From contig OX597836.1 of assembly GCA_951406725.2 (NCBI GenBank), positions 15,004,001-15,068,000 of the forward strand: a stretch of DNA of 64,000 nt. Reading direction: 5' to 3'. This DNA comes from Octopus vulgaris (taxonomy: Eukaryota). Within the stretch, counting starts at the first letter, position 1, and every line of letters starts with the position of its first letter. The notes beneath the pieces were generated by a model. That model had not been told where the DNA came from. It did not search any database and was given only the letters and a program-made list of their open reading frames with translations. A program made the position numbers and the translations under genes. This document shows positions 11,033 through 63,333 of this stretch, piece after piece.

Positions 11033-11453
11033 GTGAGTACCATTTCCCTCTCTTCTTCTGTCTTTAAGTTTGTGTATTCTTATATGCTTACTCATAAACA
11101 TACACACACATAGTGAAAGAAAATTCATGTTTATGTATACCCTGGTCTTAGAATAAAAACATAATAGTATTCTTATTTTTTTATTGCCCACAAAGGTCTA
11201 AACATAGAGGGGTAAACAAGGACAGACAAAGGGATTAAGTCGATTACATCAACCCCAGTGCGTATCTGGTACTTAATTTATCGATTCTGAAAGGATGAAA
11301 GGCAAAGTCGACCTCAGCGGAATTTGAACTCAGAACATAACGGCAGATGAAATACCACTAAGCATTTCATTCAGCATGCTAACAATTCTCATTTCTTTAT
11401 TGCCTTTTGTTTTTCTCCCCTCTAATTCTCTGAGTCTAAGTAATCTAAGAATA

Positions 11454-11975
11454 AGTATTTCATCTGCCGTTACCTTCTGAGTTCAAACTCCATCGAGGTC
11501 GACTCTGCCCTTCACGGTTGATTAAATAAGTACCAGTTACGCACGGGGGCCAATGAAATCGACTTTAACCTTTTGTCTGTCCTTGTTTGTCCCCTCTATG
11601 TTTAACCCCTTGTGGGCAATAAAGAAATAAGTATTTCATCTGCCGTTACCTTCTGAGTTCAAATTCCTTCGAGGTCGTCTTTGCCTTTCATCCGTTTGGG
11701 GTCGATTAAATAAGTACCAGTTATGCACTGGGTTCGATGAAATTGATTTAAACATTTTGTCTGTCCTTGATTGTCCCCTCTATGTTTAGCCCTTTGTGGG
11801 CAATAAAGAAATAAGTATTTCTTCTGCCGTTACCTTCTGAGTTCAAACTCCATCGAGGTCGACTCTGCCCTTCAGGGTCAATTAAATAAGTACCAGTTAT
11901 GCACTGGGGTCGATGAAATCGACTTAAACCTTTTGTCTGTCCTTGATTGTTCCCTCTATATTTAGCCCTCTAAAG
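11454..11975 (+). mobile_element. Three tandem ~180-bp units of the family-C SINE body, next to an inverted copy at 11175-11390
   Basis: units restart at GTATTTC near 11455, 11631 and 11815. Confidence 0.85.
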
Positions 11976-15282: not shown

Positions 15283-15702
15283 GGCGGCGAGCTGGCAGAC
15301 ACGTTAGCATGCCAGGCGAAATGCTTAGCGGTATTTTGTCTGTCGTTACGTTCTGAGTTCAAATTCCGCCGAGGTCGACTTTGCCTTTCATCCTTTCGTG
15401 GTCGATAAATTAAGTACCAGTGACGCACTGGGGTCGATGTAATCGATTTAATACCTATGTCTGTCCTTGTTTGTCCCCTCTGTGTTTAGCCCCTTGTGGA
15501 TAATAAAGAAATAGGTATTTCGTCTGTCGTTACGTTCTGAGTTCAAATTCCACTGAGGTCGATTTTGCCTTTCATCCTTTCCGGGTCAGTAAATAAAGTA
15601 CCAATTTCGCACTGGGGTCGATGTAATTGACTTAATTCCTTTGTCTGTCCTTGTTTGTCCCCTCTATGTTTAGCCCCTTTTGGGCAATAAAGAAATATAT
15701 AT
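15283..15702 (+). mobile_element. SINE family C (GGCGGCGAGCTGGCAG head), partial dimer with 14-bp TSD
   Basis: B-box-like GAGTTCAAATTCC; core TTTGCCTTTCATCCTTTCGGGGTCGATAAA; TSD TAATGGGTCCAAAA. Other copies near 4217, 16849, 24957, 33410, 43270, 49254, 56203. Confidence 0.88.
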
Positions 15703-16690: not shown

Positions 16691-17581
16691 GTGTCTATAA
16701 ACACAGGGTATGGCTGTGTGGTAAGAAGCTTGTTTCCTAACCGCATGGTTCAGGGTTCAGTCCCACTGCACCTTGGGTAATTCTCTTCTACTATGGACTC
16801 TAGCCACCTGAAGCCTTGTCTGTGGCATTGGTAGACAGAAACTGAAAGAGGTGGCGAGCTGGAAGAAACGTTAGCACGCGGGGCGAAATGCTTAGCGGTA
16901 TTTCGTCTGTCTTTACGTTCTGAGTTCAAATTCCGCCAAAGTTGATTTTGCCGTTTCATCCTTTCGGGGTCGATTAAATAAGTACCAGTTACACACTGGG
17001 GTCGATGTAATCGACTTAATCCCTTTGTCTGTCCTTGTTTGTCCCACTCTATGTTTAGCCCCTTGTGGGCAATAAAGAAATAAGAAACTGAAAGAAGCCT
17101 ATCTGTGTGTGTGTGTGTGTGTTTGTCCTCCACTACCACTTAACTGGTGTTGGTGTGTTTATGTCCCCATTTACTTAACAGTTCAGTAAAAAGGACCAAT
17201 AGAATAAGTACAAGCTTAAAACAAAATAATAAGCGATGAGATCAATTTATTCCACTAAAGATTCCTCAAGGCGGTGCCCCAGCATGGCCACAGCCTAATG
17301 ACTGAAACAAGTAAAAAGATAAAAGATATATAATTATTTCCTCTTCCTTAATTCATTATTTCATGTTTTTTAATTAAAATTATTTCCTACTTCATAATTG
17401 ATATCTTTATCATACTTCAAAATTCTTTGTCATAACTTACAAATAAAATGTTTCATGCTATCTGTGCGTATAATTACAAATTTATTAATTACCAAGATTT
17501 CCAGCATAAATTAATAATTAGCAGATGCAATAATCACTAATTCAAACTGGTTCAGTGACTTCTTTGTTTTTTCTCTTTTAT

Positions 17582-17631
<50 letters not shown>

Positions 17632-17734
17632 TTACTCATCACATTTACATAAATCCATACTAATAAACACTCACATCACACACATATACCTACATCTACA
17701 CTCACACACTTATACATACATATACACACACACG

Positions 17735-17767
<33 letters not shown>

Positions 17768-18097
17768 GCAATGACATTGGTACATATATACAATCTCATA
17801 TATATAATGTATAAAATATATATTTATAAACTATATTTATATATATATATACACACGCACATGACATTGGTTCATATATACAATCCCTTATATATAATGT
17901 ATAAAATATATATTTATACACTATATATTATAAACTCTATATATTATAAACTCTATATATATACACTGCACGTATATATACTATAATATATATATATTAT
18001 ATACTTTATTTATATGTGTGTTGTGCATGTTCTCATCCAATGCACACACAAACATCTATACACCAACCTAACACACACACACACACACACACACTAG

Positions 18098-23579: not shown

Positions 23580-23799
23580 GTTTGTTAGGGTTTTTTTTTA
23601 ACCATTTCTCCAACTCCATTAACATCATCTTTTAATTATTATTAATGTCAAATAGGGCGGCAAGGTGGCTGAAACGTTAGCACACCAGACAAAATGCTTA
23701 GCGGTCTTCACTTTCTGAGTTCAAATTCTGCCATGGTCAACTTTGCCTCTCCTCCTTTTGGGGTTAATGTAATCTTAACTCCTCCCCCAAACTTACTGA

Positions 23800-24135
23800 T
23801 CCATCTCTATCTGTTCTAATCCATCTTTGCCTGTCTAATCCATCTCTGCCTGTCCTAATCTATCTCTGCATGTCTTAATCCATCTGCCTGTCCTAATTCA
23901 TCTATTTGTTTCAATAATCCTTTGTCTTTAATCCATCTGCCTGTCCTAATCCATCTACATATCTTTATCCATTTATTTGTCTCAATACATCTGCCTGCCC
24001 TAATTCATCTACCTGTCTTAATCCATCTGCCTATCCTAATCCATCTGTATGTCCTAATCCATTTGTCTGCCTGTCCTAATCCACCTGCTTGTCTTAATAA
24101 ATATATCTACTGATCCTAGTCTGTCTGCCTATCTC
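23800..24135 (+). repeat. 18-bp minisatellite (CCTAATCCATCTGCCTGT)n
   Basis: about 16 diverged units. Confidence 0.9.
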
Positions 24136-24163
24136 ACCCATTATTTTATTTCCTTTAACTTAG

Positions 24164-24294
24164 CCTTGGTGTGACCAATTTCCCTCGGAAATCAAAGAAA
24201 AAGCCCCCAAGGGAGCAGACATCTGCTGTATTTATCATCCGCCGGAATAGTGCTGAAGGACCCGAGTTTCTGATGAATCAGCGTCCAAAAACTG
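24164..24294 (+). CDS. MUTYH: MUTYH exon (SLGVTNFPRKSKKKPPREQTSAVFIIRRNSAEGPEFLMNQRPKT)
   Basis: cttAG / GTGACT; LGVxNFPRK and QRP motifs. Confidence 0.94.
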
Positions 24295-25392: not shown

Positions 25393-25422
25393 TGCGTGTG
25401 TGTGTGTGTGTGTGTGTGTGCG

Positions 25423-25454
<32 letters not shown>

Positions 25455-25566
25455 CATGTGTATGTGTGTGTGCGTGTGTGTGTATGTGTGTGTGTGTGCG
25501 TGTGTATGTGTGTGTGCGTGTGTGTGTGCGTGTGTGTATGTGTGCGTGTGTGTATGTGTGCGTGCG

Positions 25567-25610
<44 letters not shown>

Positions 25611-25621
25611 TGTGCGTGTGT

Positions 25622-25674
<53 letters not shown>

Positions 25675-25775
25675 TGTGTGTGTGTGTATGTGTGCGTGTG
25701 TGTATGTGTGCGTGCGTGTGTGTGTGGGTGGGTGTGTGTGTATGTGTGTGTGTGTGTGTATGTATGTGTGTGTGC
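25393..25775. repeat. (TG)n microsatellite, about 380 bp, about 30 bp downstream of a MUTYH donor
   Basis: seen directly. Confidence 0.95.
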
Positions 25776-28582: not shown

Positions 28583-28624
28583 GTTTTCAAAAGATTTGAA
28601 GATTCTCAAAAGAAAACATCATCC
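28583..28624 (+). CDS. MUTYH: MUTYH exon (VFKRFEDSQKKTSS)
   Basis: poly-T tract then taAG / GTGAGT; completes the conserved AMKK-VF. Confidence 0.85.
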
Positions 28625-41589: not shown

Positions 41590-42200
41590 TCTACCACCAC
41601 CGGCGCAGCTACTATCCCATATTACCTGCATACCACCACCACTACCACCACCAACACCGCTACCACCACCACCACCACCACTACCACCACCATCACCAAC
41701 AATAACACCACTACTACCACTACCACCAACAACAACATCACCACCTCCAACAACACCACTACTACCACTACCACCACCATTACCACCACCAACAATATCA
41801 CCACCACCACCACCCACCATCACCACCACCACTACCACCACCACCACCACCACCATTACCACCACCAACAACATCACCACCACCAACACCACCCACCACC
41901 ACCATTACCACCACCAACAACAACATCACCAGCACCACCCACCACCACCACTACCACCACCAACAACATCACCAGCACCAACACCACCCACCACCACCAC
42001 TACCACCACCACCACCACCATTACCACCACCAACAACAACATCACCACCACCAACACCACCCACCACCACCACTATCATCACCACCACCACCACCACCCA
42101 CCATCACTACCACCACTATTATCACCTCAAGCTGCTATCACCACTGCTACTCCAAGCTGCTACCACTACTCCAAGCCACCACCACCACCACCATCACCAC
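41590..42200. repeat. (ACC/ACT)n trinucleotide tract
   Basis: seen directly. Confidence 0.95.
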
Positions 42201-42366: not shown

Positions 42367-42427
42367 CTTTGGTTGGAACTGAAGAGCTGCATTAGGCGGA
42401 TCGCCATGCCAAACAAACCTCCAGTCT
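42367..42427 (-). CDS. GGPS1: GGPS1 exon (KTGGLFGMAIRLMQLFSSNQS)
   Basis: tgcAG / GTGAGT; KTGGLF motif. Confidence 0.96.
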
Positions 42428-42489: not shown

Positions 42490-42960
42490 ATAATGAATGA
42501 TGAGTGGGGAAGGTGAGTGATGAGTGGGGAAGGTGAGTGATGAGTGGAGAAGATGAGTGATGGGTGGGGAAGGTGAGTGTTTGAGTGAGAAATGTGAGTG
42601 ATGAGTGGGTAAGATGAGTGACGAGTGGGGAAGCTGAGAGATGAGTGATAAGTGGGGAAGGTGAGTGTTGAGTGAGGAAGGGAGGTGCTGAGTGAGTTGT
42701 GTGTAAAGATGAGTGATGAATGAGGAAGGCGAGTGATAAGTGGAGAAGGTGAGCAATGAGTGAAGATGGTGAGTGGTAAGAGAAAATGATGAGTTATTAT
42801 GACTGAGGAAGATGAATGAATGATGAATGGGGAAAGTGAGTGTTGAGTGAGGAAGATGAGTGTCAAGTGAGGAGGATGAATGATGAGTGAAGAAGACAAG
42901 AGATGAGTAAAGAAGCTGGTTAGTGAGTGAGGAAAGTGAGTTATGAGTAGTGAAAATAAA
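42490..42960. repeat. About 20-bp minisatellite (GAGTGATGAGTGGGGAAGGT)n
   Basis: seen directly; about 20 diverged units. Confidence 0.9.
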
Positions 42961-43895: not shown

Positions 43896-44021
43896 TGCTG
43901 CTGCTGCTACTACTACTACTCCTACAATTACTACTTCTACTACTACCACTACCACTACTTCTACTACTACTACCACCACCAGCACTACTACTACTACTAC
44001 TACTAGGACCACCACCACCAT

Positions 44022-44066
<45 letters not shown>

Positions 44067-44141
44067 CACCACTACCACTACTACTGCTGCCGCTGCTGCT
44101 GCTGCTGCTACTACTACTACTACTACTACTACTCCTACAAT

Positions 44142-44187
<46 letters not shown>
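43896..44187. repeat. (CTA/CCA/CTG)n tract
   Basis: seen directly. Confidence 0.95.
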
Positions 44188-47529: not shown

Positions 47530-47904
47530 AAAAAGGGTGGAATATAATTAATTTAATAAAATTAACAAATTTCACCTAGTAGATTTATCGGTATGGAAAA
47601 GACCATATTTGGTAAGGATTATAATAATTATAATAAAGGATTATAATAATTATAATAATTTACTAGGTGAAATTTTTTATCAAATATAACCCTTTATATA
47701 TATATATATATATAAACACACATACACACACACTCACACACATACACACACATATGACAGACTAGGAGACAGACAGACAGATAGATAGATGGATGGATGG
47801 ACATATTCTAAAATGAAGAATAGGATTTATGGTATTACACAAACAGGCACATAACACAAACATGTTACACAAACAGAGATGCTGGTATAATCTAACACAC
47901 TTAC

Positions 47905-48021
47905 CTGTGAAAACTGTTATTGCATCAGGATGTCCGAGATCTAAAACTTTCTTCAGTCCCAAGAAATATACATAATTCGCCGAATTGAGTGTGATTGGAA
48001 CACCAAACATACTGTGAGCGA
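47905..48021 (-). CDS. GGPS1: GGPS1 exon (VAHSMFGVPITLNSANYVYFLGLKKVLDLGHPDAITVFT)
   Basis: tacAG / GTAAGT; NSANYVYFLGL motif. Confidence 0.96.
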
Positions 48022-48293
48022 CTGTAAGGAAGACAGAGAATGAGTGAGAGAGAGATGAGTGCAGAATGTGAATGAGGGAAGAGTATAAGATGTGAATGAG
48101 GGAACAGGAGAGTGTGAGTGAGGGATACTAATGTGGAGTGTGAGTAAGAAAATAAAGTAGAGTGTGGGTGAAAAGAAGAGTATAAAGTGTGAGTGGCTTG
48201 TGTGCACAGAATGGATAGAGTGTGAGGTGACAGAATATTAGAGAAATAGAATTTCAATTCATGAAAAGAAAATCGGACATTATTAAACAATGA

Positions 48294-49791: not shown

Positions 49792-50996
49792 CTGGAAAAT
49801 AGAGGGAAAAAAACAGGTGTTTCATTAAAAGATTATTAATTAGCTGATAAGATATTAATATGATAAATGATGTTAGACATTTTGAATATCAGTTCCAGGC
49901 AGAAAATAGAAACAGGATCATACATATCAGATTTGGCAGGTTACCAAAGTCATGATTAGTCAACACAACAACTGCTGTCCAAATTGCTATCAAATTAGGT
50001 ACTATGTAAATATGTGTGAACAGAGGATCTTTTCTGTTTGGCTCACACTTTTTGAAATTTTAAAATTAAGCGAAAATTTTCAAATTTGGTATATTGATGT
50101 AATTTTCCATGCCGGATCTGATGTTGCTTTCTGCTTATTCAAGAAAAATTTTAGAAAAATGTTACAGAAAAATGTTATAGGCGGAGGAGTGGCTATTTTG
50201 TTTTTCACAACATTAACTTGTGTAGGTTGAACTATGGAAAAAAAACCTGGCTGTTTCTTGCAATACAGACCAATACATACATCTAAAGCAAAATCCTTTC
50301 AGGGACTCTTAAAATACTGTAGTGGATCCCCAATTCACTATTTTGTTACATGGACCCACAAAAGTCTTGTATGAACCCTGGTTGAGAACCACTGGTGGAG
50401 GTGCATGGCTTAGTGGTTAGGGTGTTGGACTCACGATTGTAAGATTGAGATTTCAATTCCTGGACCAGGCAATGTGTTGAGTTCTTGAGCAAAACACTTC
50501 ATTTCATGTTGCTCCAGTCCACTCAGCTGTAGAAATGAGTACCACTAGTGGAGGCACATAGCTTAGTGGTTAGAGTGTTGGATTCACAACCGTAAGATTG
50601 TGGTTTCAATCCATACACCTGGCATCCCACTGTGTTCTTGAACAAAACACTTCATTTCATGTTCTTCCAGTCCACTCAGCTGTAGAAATGAGCTTGGTCA
50701 GGAGAGGGATGGGCTCCCCCAGGCTTTCTTGGCCTGGATACGCTGCATGGCTGCAATGCCACAACAACCCCCAAGGGGTTATAAGAGACTTGTCATTGTC
50801 ACTGAGATCCACTGATCTAAACCCTTCAAGGTGCCTACCACCACCACCACCACCACCACCACCACCAGCATGACCACAATCCAGTGACTGAAACAAGTTA
50901 AAGATAATAAAAATACAAATGAAAGCTGATTAATCAACACAAGTGACATGGTCATGACACCGACAAATGTTAAAAGTAGATAAATTAGTTACTCAC

Positions 50997-51082
50997 AACA
51001 AACTTGCATTGTGTAACATCTGTGTAATCTCTGAAATGTTGTGTAATAAAGTGTCAGGAATGTTGAGCCAGTGATTGAAAGC
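50997..51082 (-). CDS. GGPS1: GGPS1 exon (AFNHWLNIPDTLLHNISEITQMLHNASLL)
   Basis: tgcAG / GTGAGT; AFNHWL and MLHNASLL motifs. Confidence 0.96.
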
Positions 51083-51990
51083 CTGCAATGAGAAAAGGAA
51101 ATGGTCAGTCTCGAAAACATAATGGTCAGTCTCATAATGGTCAGTCTTATAATGGTCAGTCTCAAAACATAATGATCAATGAAGGCTGATAGCAATTAGT
51201 TCCATAATTACAGAGGATGGCAAGGTGGCAAGCTAGAAGAATCGTTAGCATGCTGAGCTTAGATGCTTAGTGGCATTTTGTCTGTCTGTAGGTTCTGAGT
51301 TCAAATTCCACTGAGGTCCACTTTGCCTATCATCCTTCTGGGGTTGACTAAATAAGTACCAGTTGTGTATTGGGGGTCGAGTACCAATTGTGTATTGACT
51401 AACCCCCACCCCCCTCTCCTGAATTTGCTGGCCTTGTCCCAAAATTTGAAATCATTATTATGTAAGATGGTAGTGACCCTTTCTACAATAGGCACAAAGC
51501 CTGAAATTTTAAGGTGATGGGGGCTAATCAATTACATTAACCCCCACCCCCACCAAAGTGTTCAACTGGTACTTATTGAACCTAAGAGGAGGAATGGTTT
51601 AAATCAAACTTGGCAGATTTGAGCCCAGAACATAAACAGATGGAAGAAATTCCATTAAGCGCTTTGTCTAATACATTGACAGTTTATAAAGATTTCAAAT
51701 TTTGGCACAAGGCCGGCAATTTTCGAAGAAGAGGTAAGTCGATCACATCAAATCCAGTGTTGTCATTGCCAGTACCGCCTGACTAGCCCCCCCCCCCGTG
51801 CCAGTGGCACATAAAAAGCACCCGCTACACTCTCCGAGTGGTTGGCATTAGGAAGGGCATCCAGCTGTAGAAACTCTGTCAGATCACATTGGAGCCTGGT
51901 GCAGCCATCTGGTTCGCCAGCCCTCAGTCAAAATCGTCCAACCCATGCTAGCATGGAAAGCAGACGTTAAACGATGATGATGGTGATGAT

Positions 51991-59495: not shown

Positions 59496-60038
59496 CATAT
59501 ATTCCCAAGCCACAACGGGTTGGCCAAACACAAAAGCTAATAAAAAAAAAAAAACATGTTTTTCCTTTCTCTCATTCTTTTCAATTAGGACCTTTCTGTA
59601 TGCAATGTTATTCAACAGCAACAACAACAACAATAATTACCAGCAGCAGCTTAATACTACATAATTAACAACTAGGCCAAGGACAATTAGTATTTCAGAA
59701 GCTAATTCTAATTCTACTAACAGACAAGCTACAGATGTTTTGTATGTCTATCACTATTTTGTTGTTGCCATTGTCTTTGAGTAAGCCCTGTCACATCCAA
59801 GGAGTTAAGGTAACCAATAGAATGATTAATCAGATCTTGTAAGGTGGACATGACATTTTTCAGTATCTTGTGTGACCATGGATACTGCGTATAAACAGAT
59901 ACATCTACAATGTCCCCCAACACTATTACAACACCATCTCTCCAACTCAGTCCTGACATATCTACAGCACCATCCTAATAACACTATCTCTTTCAATCCA
60001 AACACATTTACAACACCCCACAACACAACTACAATACC

Positions 60039-60453
60039 TATTTCTTTATTACCCACAAGGGGCTAAACACAGAGAGGACAAACAAGGACAGACAAATGGA
60101 TTAAGTCGATTACATCGACCCCAGTGCGTAACTGGTACTTATTTAATCGACCCCGAAAGGATGAAAGGCAAAGTCGACCTCGGCGGAATTTGAACTCAGA
60201 ACGTAACGGCAGACGAAATACTTATTTCTTTACTACCCACAAGGGGCTAAACACAGAGAGGACAAACAAGGACAGACAAATGGATTAAGTCGACTTCATC
60301 GACCCCAGTGCGTAACTGGTACTTAATTTATCGACCCCGAAAGGATGAAAGGCAAAGTCGACCTCGGCGGAATTTGAACTCAGAACATAGCGGCAGATGA
60401 TATACTGCTAAGCATTTCGTCCAGCATGCTAACGTTTCTGCCAGCTCGCCGCC
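60039..60453 (-). mobile_element. SINE family C partial dimer with a 47-bp flanking duplication
   Basis: family consensus; flanks 59992-60038 and 60454-60500. Confidence 0.85.
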
Positions 60454-62828: not shown

Positions 62829-63333
62829 TATATATATATACACACACACATACATACATATATGTACACACATACACGCATTTGTATGTGTATGCATGCT
62901 TTCTTATTGTGTAAATCTGTCACCAATATTCATTGGTAAAATAATGTAGCCATTGGAAAGAAAACCAATAATAAACCAAAGCATTCAGACAAAATGTACC
63001 TTGTGGTGTTTATTCTGCCCATGTTGCACAGACATCCCCTTTCCACACTTGCCATTGAAAATGTAGTGAACCAGTGATTGGTGTGTTACAAACCTGGAAC
63101 CAACAATTCTATTGTTCACAAAATATAAATAAAACAGAAATAAAAATAAATAAATCTATTATAATAAACGTCAAATTCTGTCTGTCCGTCCATCAGGGAC
63201 CCCTAAATCTCAGTCTACATTTGCTGAAAATAAAGAAACAAAAACAAAAAGAAAAAACACCCCTTGCCCAGTAAATTATAAAATACAAATCTGTGTTCAC
63301 TGTCAGATTATTAGGAAGAAAAAAAAACAAAAC

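What the first reader, a model, noticed from the sequence alone, without database searches (positions are those of the whole stretch)
23800..24135. Recurrent pattern: unrelated minisatellites made of branch-point-like plus pyrimidine units abut acceptors in both genes
Seen: (CCTAATCCATCTGCCTGT)n ends about 30 nt before the MUTYH exon at 24164. (ACTCATCACTCACCTTCCCC)n in sense (42490-42960) precedes the GGPS1 exon at 42427. A CTCAT/CTCAC-rich tract (48030-48240) runs into the GGPS1 exon at 48021. A CTGAC repeat precedes the exon at 51082. All four are oriented so the transcript reads yUnAy plus pyrimidines, and the first two unit consensuses contain no AG. Inference: a lineage-specific intron architecture in which 3' splice signals are expanded into arrays (long AG-exclusion zones or splicing-factor landing arrays), possibly helping define short exons among repeat-filled introns. 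This would be a candidate undescribed system if general.
Basis: partly seen in the sequence, partly recalled or inferred. Interest (0 to 1): 0.7.

Follow-up and report, generated by a model that had tools for sequence, protein, structure and literature searches.

The report
Guanine-poor repeats before octopus splice acceptors
In two octopus housekeeping genes, long repeats almost free of guanine sit just before several exons; they are likely locally born repeats that splicing tolerates there, not a new splicing device, though a skew of repeat types between the two intron ends deserves a genome-wide test.

Summary
The window holds octopus MUTYH (+) and GGPS1 (-); I mapped 25 introns. Three arrays are real, sense-oriented, G-poor and rich in yUnAy. 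The fourth (CTGAC) has an AG in every unit. Repeats do cluster at acceptors (12 of 79 within 100 nt, 3.7 expected), but the window was picked post hoc.

The proposed design fails its tests:
- At unit level, yUnAy content and lack of AG are what composition predicts.
- Branch-point positions are not specially conserved.
- A TAG lies between the MUTYH array and its acceptor; the largest GGPS1 array holds four CAGs.
- All four acceptors have an ordinary branch-point candidate; the exons are not short.

The two arrays tested persist in related organisms, change length, and are not a dispersed family. Best reading (0.6): slippage-born repeats filtered by splicing-coupled selection against G.

The lead worth following is polarity: repeats are G-rich after donors (7 of 7 intron ends) and C-rich before acceptors (7 of 8), the reverse of zebrafish, with no pairing across introns. 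No genome was held, so generality is untested. The scan noted related splice-site repeats on other DNA (octopus, sea urchin).

The parts
23791..24130 (+). 18-nt minisatellite, about 19 units, in the 584-nt MUTYH intron 11 (M11, 23580-24163); built from ATCC/ATCT/GTCT-type tetramers; one CTAAT-like motif per unit
   Evidence: present with length changes in organisms B, C and D
24117..24119 (+). TAG between the array and the true acceptor, 44 nt upstream; its use would shift the frame; the only AG in about 440 nt
   Evidence: no differing letter listed here in X2, X7, X8 (3 rows not shown)
24133..24163 (+). ordinary 3' splice site of M11: CTCAC branch-point candidate (A at -28, predicted), T-rich tract, TAG
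24164..24294 (+). MUTYH coding exon 12 (131 nt)
42494..42960 (-). 20-nt minisatellite, about 22-23 units, CACT/CATC vocabulary, 2% G in sense, in GGPS1 intron G6 (44328-42428); holds 4 CAGs at 206, 260, 375 and 488 nt upstream of the exon
   Evidence: spanned by one contig of organism D, covered in pieces in organism B
42367..42427 (-). GGPS1 coding exon (61 nt); its acceptor and donor are used in RNA-type contig X14
48030..48240 (-). loose CTCAY/CACT-rich pyrimidine tract running into the acceptor of GGPS1 intron G4; AGs at 106 and 175 nt upstream
47905..48021 (-). GGPS1 coding exon (117 nt)
51092..51164 (-). 4 copies of a 15-nt unit; the last holds the likely branch point (CTGAC, A at -23); every unit carries an AG
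50997..51082 (-). GGPS1 coding exon (86 nt)
43907..44187 (-). (AGT)n G-rich repeat 142 nt after the donor of the same intron G6; an example of the donor-side polarity
41632..42116 (-). (GTG)n repeat after the donor of GGPS1 intron G7; donor-side polarity and control for G-poor strands
25396..25774 (+). (GT)n repeat 35 nt after the donor of MUTYH intron 13; donor-side polarity

Best explanation
These are tandem repeats next to four acceptors of octopus MUTYH and GGPS1, which likely arose in place by slippage and likely persist because a G-poor, pyrimidine-rich repeat does no harm in front of an acceptor while a G/AG-rich one would. Shown: the arrays, their orientation, their presence with length changes in related organisms, and the lack of a dispersed family. 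Inferred steps: (1) a short stretch of the pyrimidine-rich intron end, or a tetranucleotide microsatellite there, is duplicated; in the CTGAC case the branch-point region itself was copied four times; (2) slippage or unequal exchange expands and partly homogenises it; (3) selection removes expansions that put G-rich or AG-bearing units on the sense strand near the acceptor, so survivors read C/T/A-rich; (4) because yUnAy is short and degenerate, a C/T/A-rich unit often contains it, and the array multiplies the match; (5) splicing is predicted to use the ordinary branch point 20-35 nt from the AG, with the arrays as tolerated passengers.
For: Unit-level shuffles: yUnAy p=0.50, 0.13, 0.40, 0.26; AG p=0.67-1.0. 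Other long repeats in the window are just as G- and AG-poor on their C-rich strand (ACC 2 AG in 485 nt, CTA 2 in 281, AC 0 in 379). The depletion before acceptors concerns G in general (AG 0.74, GG 0.72, GT 0.71, GC 0.75). With the four flagged introns left out, AG is still lower near acceptors (45.5 against 57.3 per kb, p=0.03) but yUnAy is not enriched (p=0.30). Among units, the branch A is kept at 0.94 against 0.89 for another A (M11), and at 0.91 and 0.87 against 0.95 and 0.91 (G6); both C>G changes in G6 create an AG. Between organisms, G6 changes remove a motif in 6 of 28 cases (7.1 expected). Organism D differs at 27 listed sites in the 467-nt array and at none in the 61-nt exon. All four acceptors have a yUnAy at -16 to -35. 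Only 1-2 contigs per place lie on the M11 array, against thousands on the neighbouring dispersed repeat; 7 and 3 records lie on the G6 stretch. Purifying selection against AG together with selection for pyrimidines is the published explanation for the tract in Drosophila (PMC10946897, abstract).
Against: A filter explains orientation better than it explains clustering: 6 of 18 long non-SINE repeats end within 100 nt of an acceptor, which needs a higher birth or retention rate there. The G-poor zones reach 200-540 nt, far beyond the 20-40 nt where an AG does harm. CTRAY in the M11 and G2 units is borderline (p=0.10 and 0.085). In M11, 0 of 19 changes between organisms remove a motif (1.5 expected; not significant), and in G6, 6 changes create one (1.9 expected; direction unknown). 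The non-repetitive G3 intron end is also motif-rich (15 yUnAy against 8.2 in shuffles, p=0.004, uncorrected). The three G-poor arrays have far more yUnAy (5.8-10.1 per 100 nt) than the simple repeats (0-0.3). The arrays are retained in 2-3 other organisms.
Confidence: 0.6

Rival explanations
1. Functional landing or accessibility arrays. The repeats would be kept because they bind SF1/U2AF-, PTB-, Nova- or hnRNP L-type proteins (binding motifs recalled, not tested), or keep the 3' splice site single-stranded in repeat-filled introns, while G-rich repeats act after donors.
For: Positional excess. Polarity of 7 of 7 intron ends after donors and 7 of 8 before acceptors (pooled Fisher p=0.0014; GGPS1 alone 0.018). 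The three array-bearing intron ends are predicted nearly unfolded (-0.009 to -0.016 kcal/nt against a median of -0.213). The G6 unit has 4 YCAY (unit shuffle p=0.03). Retention in related organisms.
Against: No motif-specific conservation. The acceptors are no weaker and the exons no shorter than others. 21 of 25 introns lack such arrays. Low folding energy follows from G-poverty. The polarity test was devised after seeing the data; it weakens to 11 of 19, p=0.10, once repeats are masked, and is not significant in MUTYH alone (p=0.14). Orthologous acceptors in an unnamed distant animal have no array (L002, L003, L005).
Confidence: 0.15
2. Chance in a repeat-saturated genome, amplified by picking one striking window out of hundreds; position and orientation would vanish genome-wide.
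For: 79 repeats in 52.7 kb of intron. The scan has notes on 423 windows of this genome, so p=3e-4 becomes about 0.15 and 9e-5 about 0.04 after a simple correction. 3 of the 12 acceptor-proximal repeats are plain T-rich tracts, one is a 184-nt tandem and two belong to one intron. Mid-intron repeats are C-rich on the genomic + strand in both genes, a regional confound. A C/T-rich ATCC/ATCT/GTCT run lies in sense just after a donor (47755-47802).
Against: In GGPS1 the acceptor-side repeats (3 of 3 C-rich in sense) run against that gene's mid-intron trend, and in MUTYH the donor-side repeats (2 of 2 G-rich) run against its trend. G and AG depletion persists without the flagged introns.
Confidence: 0.17
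3. Classical distant branch points: the lariat would form inside or at the 5' end of the array and the spliceosome would scan to the first AG.
For: AG-exclusion zones of 100 nt or more at 4 of 25 acceptors (M6 540, G6 204, M14 110, G4 104), against 838 of 67,334 human introns (PMC1431707, passages). Many yUnAy candidates lie within them.
Against: In M11, scanning from the array would meet the out-of-frame TAG at -44. In G6, branch points more than about 220 nt upstream would meet a CAG with an 80% pyrimidine lead-in. In G2 every unit has an AG. Conventional candidates exist at all four. PMC1431707 itself notes long zones that appear unrelated to splicing when a good candidate sits in the usual place.
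Confidence: 0.06

Closest known systems
AG-exclusion-zone / distant-branch-point exons (Gooding et al. 2006, PMC1431707; 12 passages read)
   Same: Long AG-poor, pyrimidine-rich stretches upstream of the acceptor.
   Different: Here the zones are tandem repeats, AGs interrupt them (M11 at -44; four CAGs in G6), and ordinary branch-point candidates exist near each acceptor.
Splicing-coupled selection on the polypyrimidine tract (PMC10946897, abstract; PMC3245539, parts 1-2 of 3)
   Same: Strand asymmetry from selection against spurious splice signals; G and AG are depleted near the acceptors here too.
   Different: Described at the level of motifs, strongest in short introns; here it would act on whole repeat arrays of 200-540 nt in introns of 0.6-2.3 kb.
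(AC)m-(GT)n bridging introns of fish and lamprey (Lin et al. 2016, PMC4691745; parts 1 and 3 of 7 read)
   Same: Lineage-specific polarity of simple repeats at the two intron ends.
   Different: Fish have AC after the donor and GT before the acceptor, paired across the intron. Here the polarity is reversed, and native end pairs are no more stable than swapped ones (p=0.19). The word search found no invertebrate, mollusc or lancelet in that paper.
'Mirage' minisatellites of amphioxus (PMC3087553, passages read)
   Same: Local, length-unstable tandem duplication at an intron end that does not seem to disturb splicing; the 15-nt CTGAC repeat is closest.
   Different: Mirages span the exon-intron boundary and copy the AG or GT with exon sequence; these arrays are wholly intronic.
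Human splicing-associated tandem repeats (PMC10078293, listing and 9 passages)
   Same: Intronic repeats near splice sites, some changing branch-site distance.
   Different: Defined by association of repeat length with splicing level; no such data exist here.

Membership tests
Distant-branch-point / AGEZ exon | No AG between the proposed distant branch point and the acceptor (zone of 100 nt or more) | tested here: not met
   M11 42 nt and G2 25 nt fail; G6 204 nt and G4 104 nt pass the length but cover only part of the array
Distant-branch-point / AGEZ exon | No good branch-point candidate in the conventional position | tested here: not met
   yUnAy at -16 to -35 in all four
Distant-branch-point / AGEZ exon | Lariat mapped to a distant adenosine | not testable with these tools
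   Only assembled contigs were listed for RNA; no raw RNA reads
Distant-branch-point / AGEZ exon | Tendency to alternative splicing | tested here: inconclusive
   One RNA-type contig includes the 61-nt exon; contigs drop rare forms
(AC)m-(GT)n bridging intron | AC repeat near the donor and GT repeat near the acceptor | tested here: not met
   Polarity is reversed
(AC)m-(GT)n bridging intron | Native intron ends pair more stably than swapped ends | tested here: not met
   24 introns, permutation p=0.19; G4 ranks 16 of 24 and G6 6 of 24; M11 left out as too short
(AC)m-(GT)n bridging intron | U2AF2 independence | not testable with these tools
   Needs depletion experiments
Mirage minisatellite | Unit spans the exon-intron boundary | tested here: not met
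   All four repeats end 9-65 nt upstream of the exon
Mirage minisatellite | Local origin and length instability | tested here: met
   For M11 and G6: indels and copy shifts in organisms B, C, D; few other contigs match.
Splicing-associated tandem repeat | Repeat length correlates with splicing level among individuals | not testable with these tools
   No matched DNA and RNA runs

The most novel reading that the evidence does not exclude
Octopus introns have a genome-wide repeat polarity, G-rich repeats after donors and long G-free C/A/U arrays before acceptors, that works as a lineage-specific exon-marking code: unstructured, motif-dense leaders that recruit SF1/U2AF/YCAY- or CA-binding proteins in repeat-filled introns, and can stand in for the pyrimidine tract, as at the CTAAC-(AC)12-TAG acceptor of MUTYH exon 7. 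It would be the mirror image of the fish AC/GT introns and would work without base pairing.
Probability: 0.13. Interest if true: 0.72.

Novelty: new variant of a known kind. Interest (0 to 1): 0.3.

Why it matters
On the best reading it matters modestly: it shows splicing-coupled selection sorting whole repeat arrays by strand, and warns that branch-point-like arrays arise readily from composition alone. If the polarity proved genome-wide and functional, it would be an invertebrate counterpart to the fish repeat-defined introns, with opposite orientation, and would bear on how animals with repeat-filled introns find their exons. The genome-wide test is cheap with public octopus assemblies.

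Tried and rejected
Genome-wide test: not possible, no genome is held.

Dinucleotide shuffles of whole arrays gave p of 0.002-0.03 for yUnAy in M11, G6 and G4 (0.71 in G2). I rejected them as pseudo-replication because units are copies, and used unit shuffles instead.

Intron bridging: not supported. Compensation for weak acceptors or short exons: not supported. Dispersed satellite family: not supported at 80-82% likeness, by blastn within the window or by the scan's sequence look-up.

Runs: no RNA holder was listed on record. RNA-type run X13 did not cover the MUTYH exons and DNA run X22 laid 0 reads; neither is a test.

Metagenome scan with GGPS1: 6 loci from 150 candidate stretches; 4 were examined, 3 come from one distant animal with shared intron positions, and none is a cephalopod as far as I could tell.

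Literature: ten searches listed no paper on branch-point-like minisatellites or repeat polarity in cephalopod introns. I saw only listings for most hits, and the library lacks most subscription papers. The O. vulgaris genome preprint (10.1101/2023.05.16.540928, word search) has no occurrence of 'intron', 'simple repeat' or 'satellite'; its supplements are closed. I opened no supplements; those of PMC4691745 may list further species.

Full report
Locus. Exon peptides from the window match Octopus vulgaris and O. sinensis adenine DNA glycosylase (MUTYH) and geranylgeranyl pyrophosphate synthase (GGPS1) at 100% and Argonauta hians at 77-92%. I built a 16-exon MUTYH model on + (2273-30601; no internal stop; 474 of 484 residues identical to P0002) and an 11-exon partial GGPS1 model on - (63093-36344; 317 of 317 identical to P0004 from residue 19). 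This gives 25 introns, 52,669 nt in all, named M1-M15 and G1-G10. No whole genome is held, so all statistics rest on these 25 introns.

The observation. M11 carries an 18-nt array (23791-24130), G6 a 20-nt array (42494-42960), G4 a loose CTCAY tract (48030-48240) and G2 four copies of a 15-nt unit (51092-51164). In the last 300 nt, M11, G4 and G6 have 17, 20 and 26 yUnAy matches in sense (antisense 1, 2, 0), 1, 5 and 2 AG, and 69-75% pyrimidine. G2 is ordinary (9 matches, 18 AG, 52%). In a scan of 3,844 intron windows on both strands, the top yUnAy peaks are G6, G6, G4 and G3, all in sense and near acceptors. The yUnAy (YTNAY) consensus is from PMC10638238 (part 1 of 4 read).

Position and strand. 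12 of 79 merged TRF repeats end within 100 nt of an acceptor (3.7 expected, p=3e-4), against 4 of 79 within 100 nt of a donor; for minisatellites of period 10-30 with 3 or more copies it is 5 of 11 (p=9e-5). The 12 include three plain T-rich tracts, one 184-nt tandem and two from M6. AG-free runs measured from -45 reach 150 nt or more at 3 of 25 acceptors (M6 497, M11 399, G6 161; background 1.0%, p=0.002). The window was chosen by a reader among 423 noted windows of this genome, so these p-values are inflated: about 0.15 and 0.04 after multiplying by 423.

Motif content. Whole-array shuffles make yUnAy look significant, but units are copies of each other. Shuffling the unit gives p=0.50 (M11), 0.13 (G6), 0.40 (G4) and 0.26 (G2); the stricter CTRAY gives 0.10 and 0.085 for M11 and G2. 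Lack of AG follows from lack of G: G6 and G4 have 4 and 2 AG against 2.4 and 1.5 expected from base counts, and only M11 is below expectation (1 against 6.3), because its G sits in TG. Other long repeats are as AG-poor on their C-rich strand. Before acceptors, GG, GT and GC are as depleted as AG. Without the four flagged introns, yUnAy is not enriched (12 of 21, p=0.30) while AG stays lower (p=0.03). One non-repetitive intron end, G3, is motif-rich (15 against 8.2, p=0.004 uncorrected).

Conservation. Among units, T and A are kept and C and G decay, regardless of whether they belong to the branch motif. Contigs of organisms B, C and D carry the M11 array with copy shifts and indels. Organisms B and D carry the G6 array; one 959-nt contig of D spans exon and array with 29 other letters and 48 gap letters, 27 listed changes in the array and none in the exon. 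Changes between organisms remove a motif in 6 of 28 cases in G6 (7.1 expected) and 0 of 19 in M11 (1.5 expected); 6 create one in G6 (1.9 expected, direction unknown); none creates an AG (0.7 and 0.3 expected), so that test has no power. These counts use only the rows shown; 3 and 1 rows were hidden. Few other contigs match either array, so they are not a dispersed family. G4 and G6 share a CACT/CTCA vocabulary (cosine 0.77), and M11 shares one with an ATCC/ATCT/GTCT microsatellite elsewhere in the window (0.71). This points to growth from tetranucleotide microsatellites (inference). In an unnamed distant animal, the orthologous G2 and G6 acceptors have no array.

Splicing logic. All four acceptors have a conventional branch-point candidate, ordinary pyrimidine tracts (0.75-0.85, median of others 0.80) and exons of ordinary length. 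Scanning from a branch point in the M11 array would meet a TAG at -44 that shifts the frame. The G6 array contains four CAGs, two with 80% pyrimidine lead-ins, so it adds decoy acceptors instead of excluding them. Every G2 unit has an AG. Scanning to the first AG is the rule for distant branch points in PMC1431707 (passages). The one RNA-type contig covering a flagged exon (X14) uses the true G6 acceptor and joins both neighbouring exons (loose ends matched by eye). Contigs cannot show rare forms.

A wider pattern. Among G/C-containing simple and minisatellite repeats, 9 of 9 within 300 nt after donors are G-rich in sense, 8 of 10 within 300 nt before acceptors are C-rich (1 G-rich, 1 neutral), and mid-intron ones split 11 to 12. 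With one vote per intron end this is 7 of 7 and 7 of 8 (Fisher p=0.0014; GGPS1 0.018, MUTYH 0.14). C-G skew rises from the first to the last 270 nt in 20 of 25 introns (p=0.001), and in 11 of 19 with repeats masked (p=0.10). Caveats: the test is post hoc, 184-, 153-, 132- and 63-nt tandems of dispersed elements and repeats with fewer than 8 G+C were dropped, and mid-intron repeats are C-rich on the genomic + strand in both genes. The orientation is the reverse of the fish (AC)m-(GT)n introns (PMC4691745, parts 1 and 3 of 7), and native intron ends pair no better than swapped ones (p=0.19, 24 introns). The array-bearing ends are predicted almost unfolded, which follows from G-poverty but could be useful.

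Mechanism and verdict. Most likely (0.6) the arrays are locally born repeats that survive a splicing-coupled filter against G and AG on the sense strand, with the real branch point close to the AG. Rivals are chance (0.17), a functional landing or accessibility role (0.15) and distant branch points (0.06). The finding resembles AGEZ exons, fish repeat-defined introns and amphioxus mirages but fails a defining test for each, so I file it under none. Ten literature searches listed no report of this in cephalopods. Earlier notes of this scan describe boundary-spanning repeats elsewhere in this genome and an AG-free zone with a TGACC minisatellite in a sea urchin; I used them as leads only. Novelty: new variant of a known kind. 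Interest 0.3; novel case probability 0.13, interest 0.72.

Noticed in passing
window 17555-18097 (+), MUTYH intron 6: 540-nt AG-free zone; the acceptor is CTAAC-(AC)12-TAG with no T in the 20 nt before the TAG. The in-frame 114-nt exon behind it is missing from the O. vulgaris protein record P0001 but present in O. sinensis P0002 (annotation gap or skipping; not resolved).
   Followed up: partly
window 28583-28624 (+), MUTYH exon 15: In-frame 42-nt exon with an AAG acceptor and a 110-nt AG-free zone; also missing from P0001. Intron M13 also ends in AAG.
   Followed up: no
window 38597-37442 (-), GGPS1 intron G9: Donor GTATCCTT, a CTTAAC 19 nt from the end and a weak T-tract: looks like a minor (U12-type) GT-AG intron (consensus recalled, not tested).
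   Followed up: partly
window introns M9, M13, G1, G3, G5, G6, G7 (donor side) and M6, M7, M11, M15, G4, G5, G6 (acceptor side): Repeat polarity: G-rich after donors, C-rich before acceptors; G5 has TG repeats near the donor and CA repeats near the acceptor, the reverse of zebrafish.
   Followed up: yes
window 49792-50080 (-), GGPS1 intron G3: Non-repetitive intron end with 15 yUnAy and 6 CTRAY in 250 nt, above dinucleotide shuffles (p=0.004 uncorrected).
   Followed up: partly
window 11450-11968, 15330-15697, 60033-60406 and 23640-23790: Head-to-tail 184-nt copies of a very abundant dispersed element; thousands of contigs lie on its fragment in intron M11. In intron M3 the two intron ends pair strongly (-204 kcal/mol), possibly inverted copies.
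   Followed up: no
whole window: Mid-intron repeats are C-rich on the genomic + strand in both convergent genes (7 of 7 in MUTYH; 12 of 17 G-rich in GGPS1 sense), suggesting a regional strand bias.
   Followed up: partly
window 63000-63093 (-): An exon that matches only GGPS1 isoform P0004; the first exon(s) of both isoforms were not found in the window.
   Followed up: no
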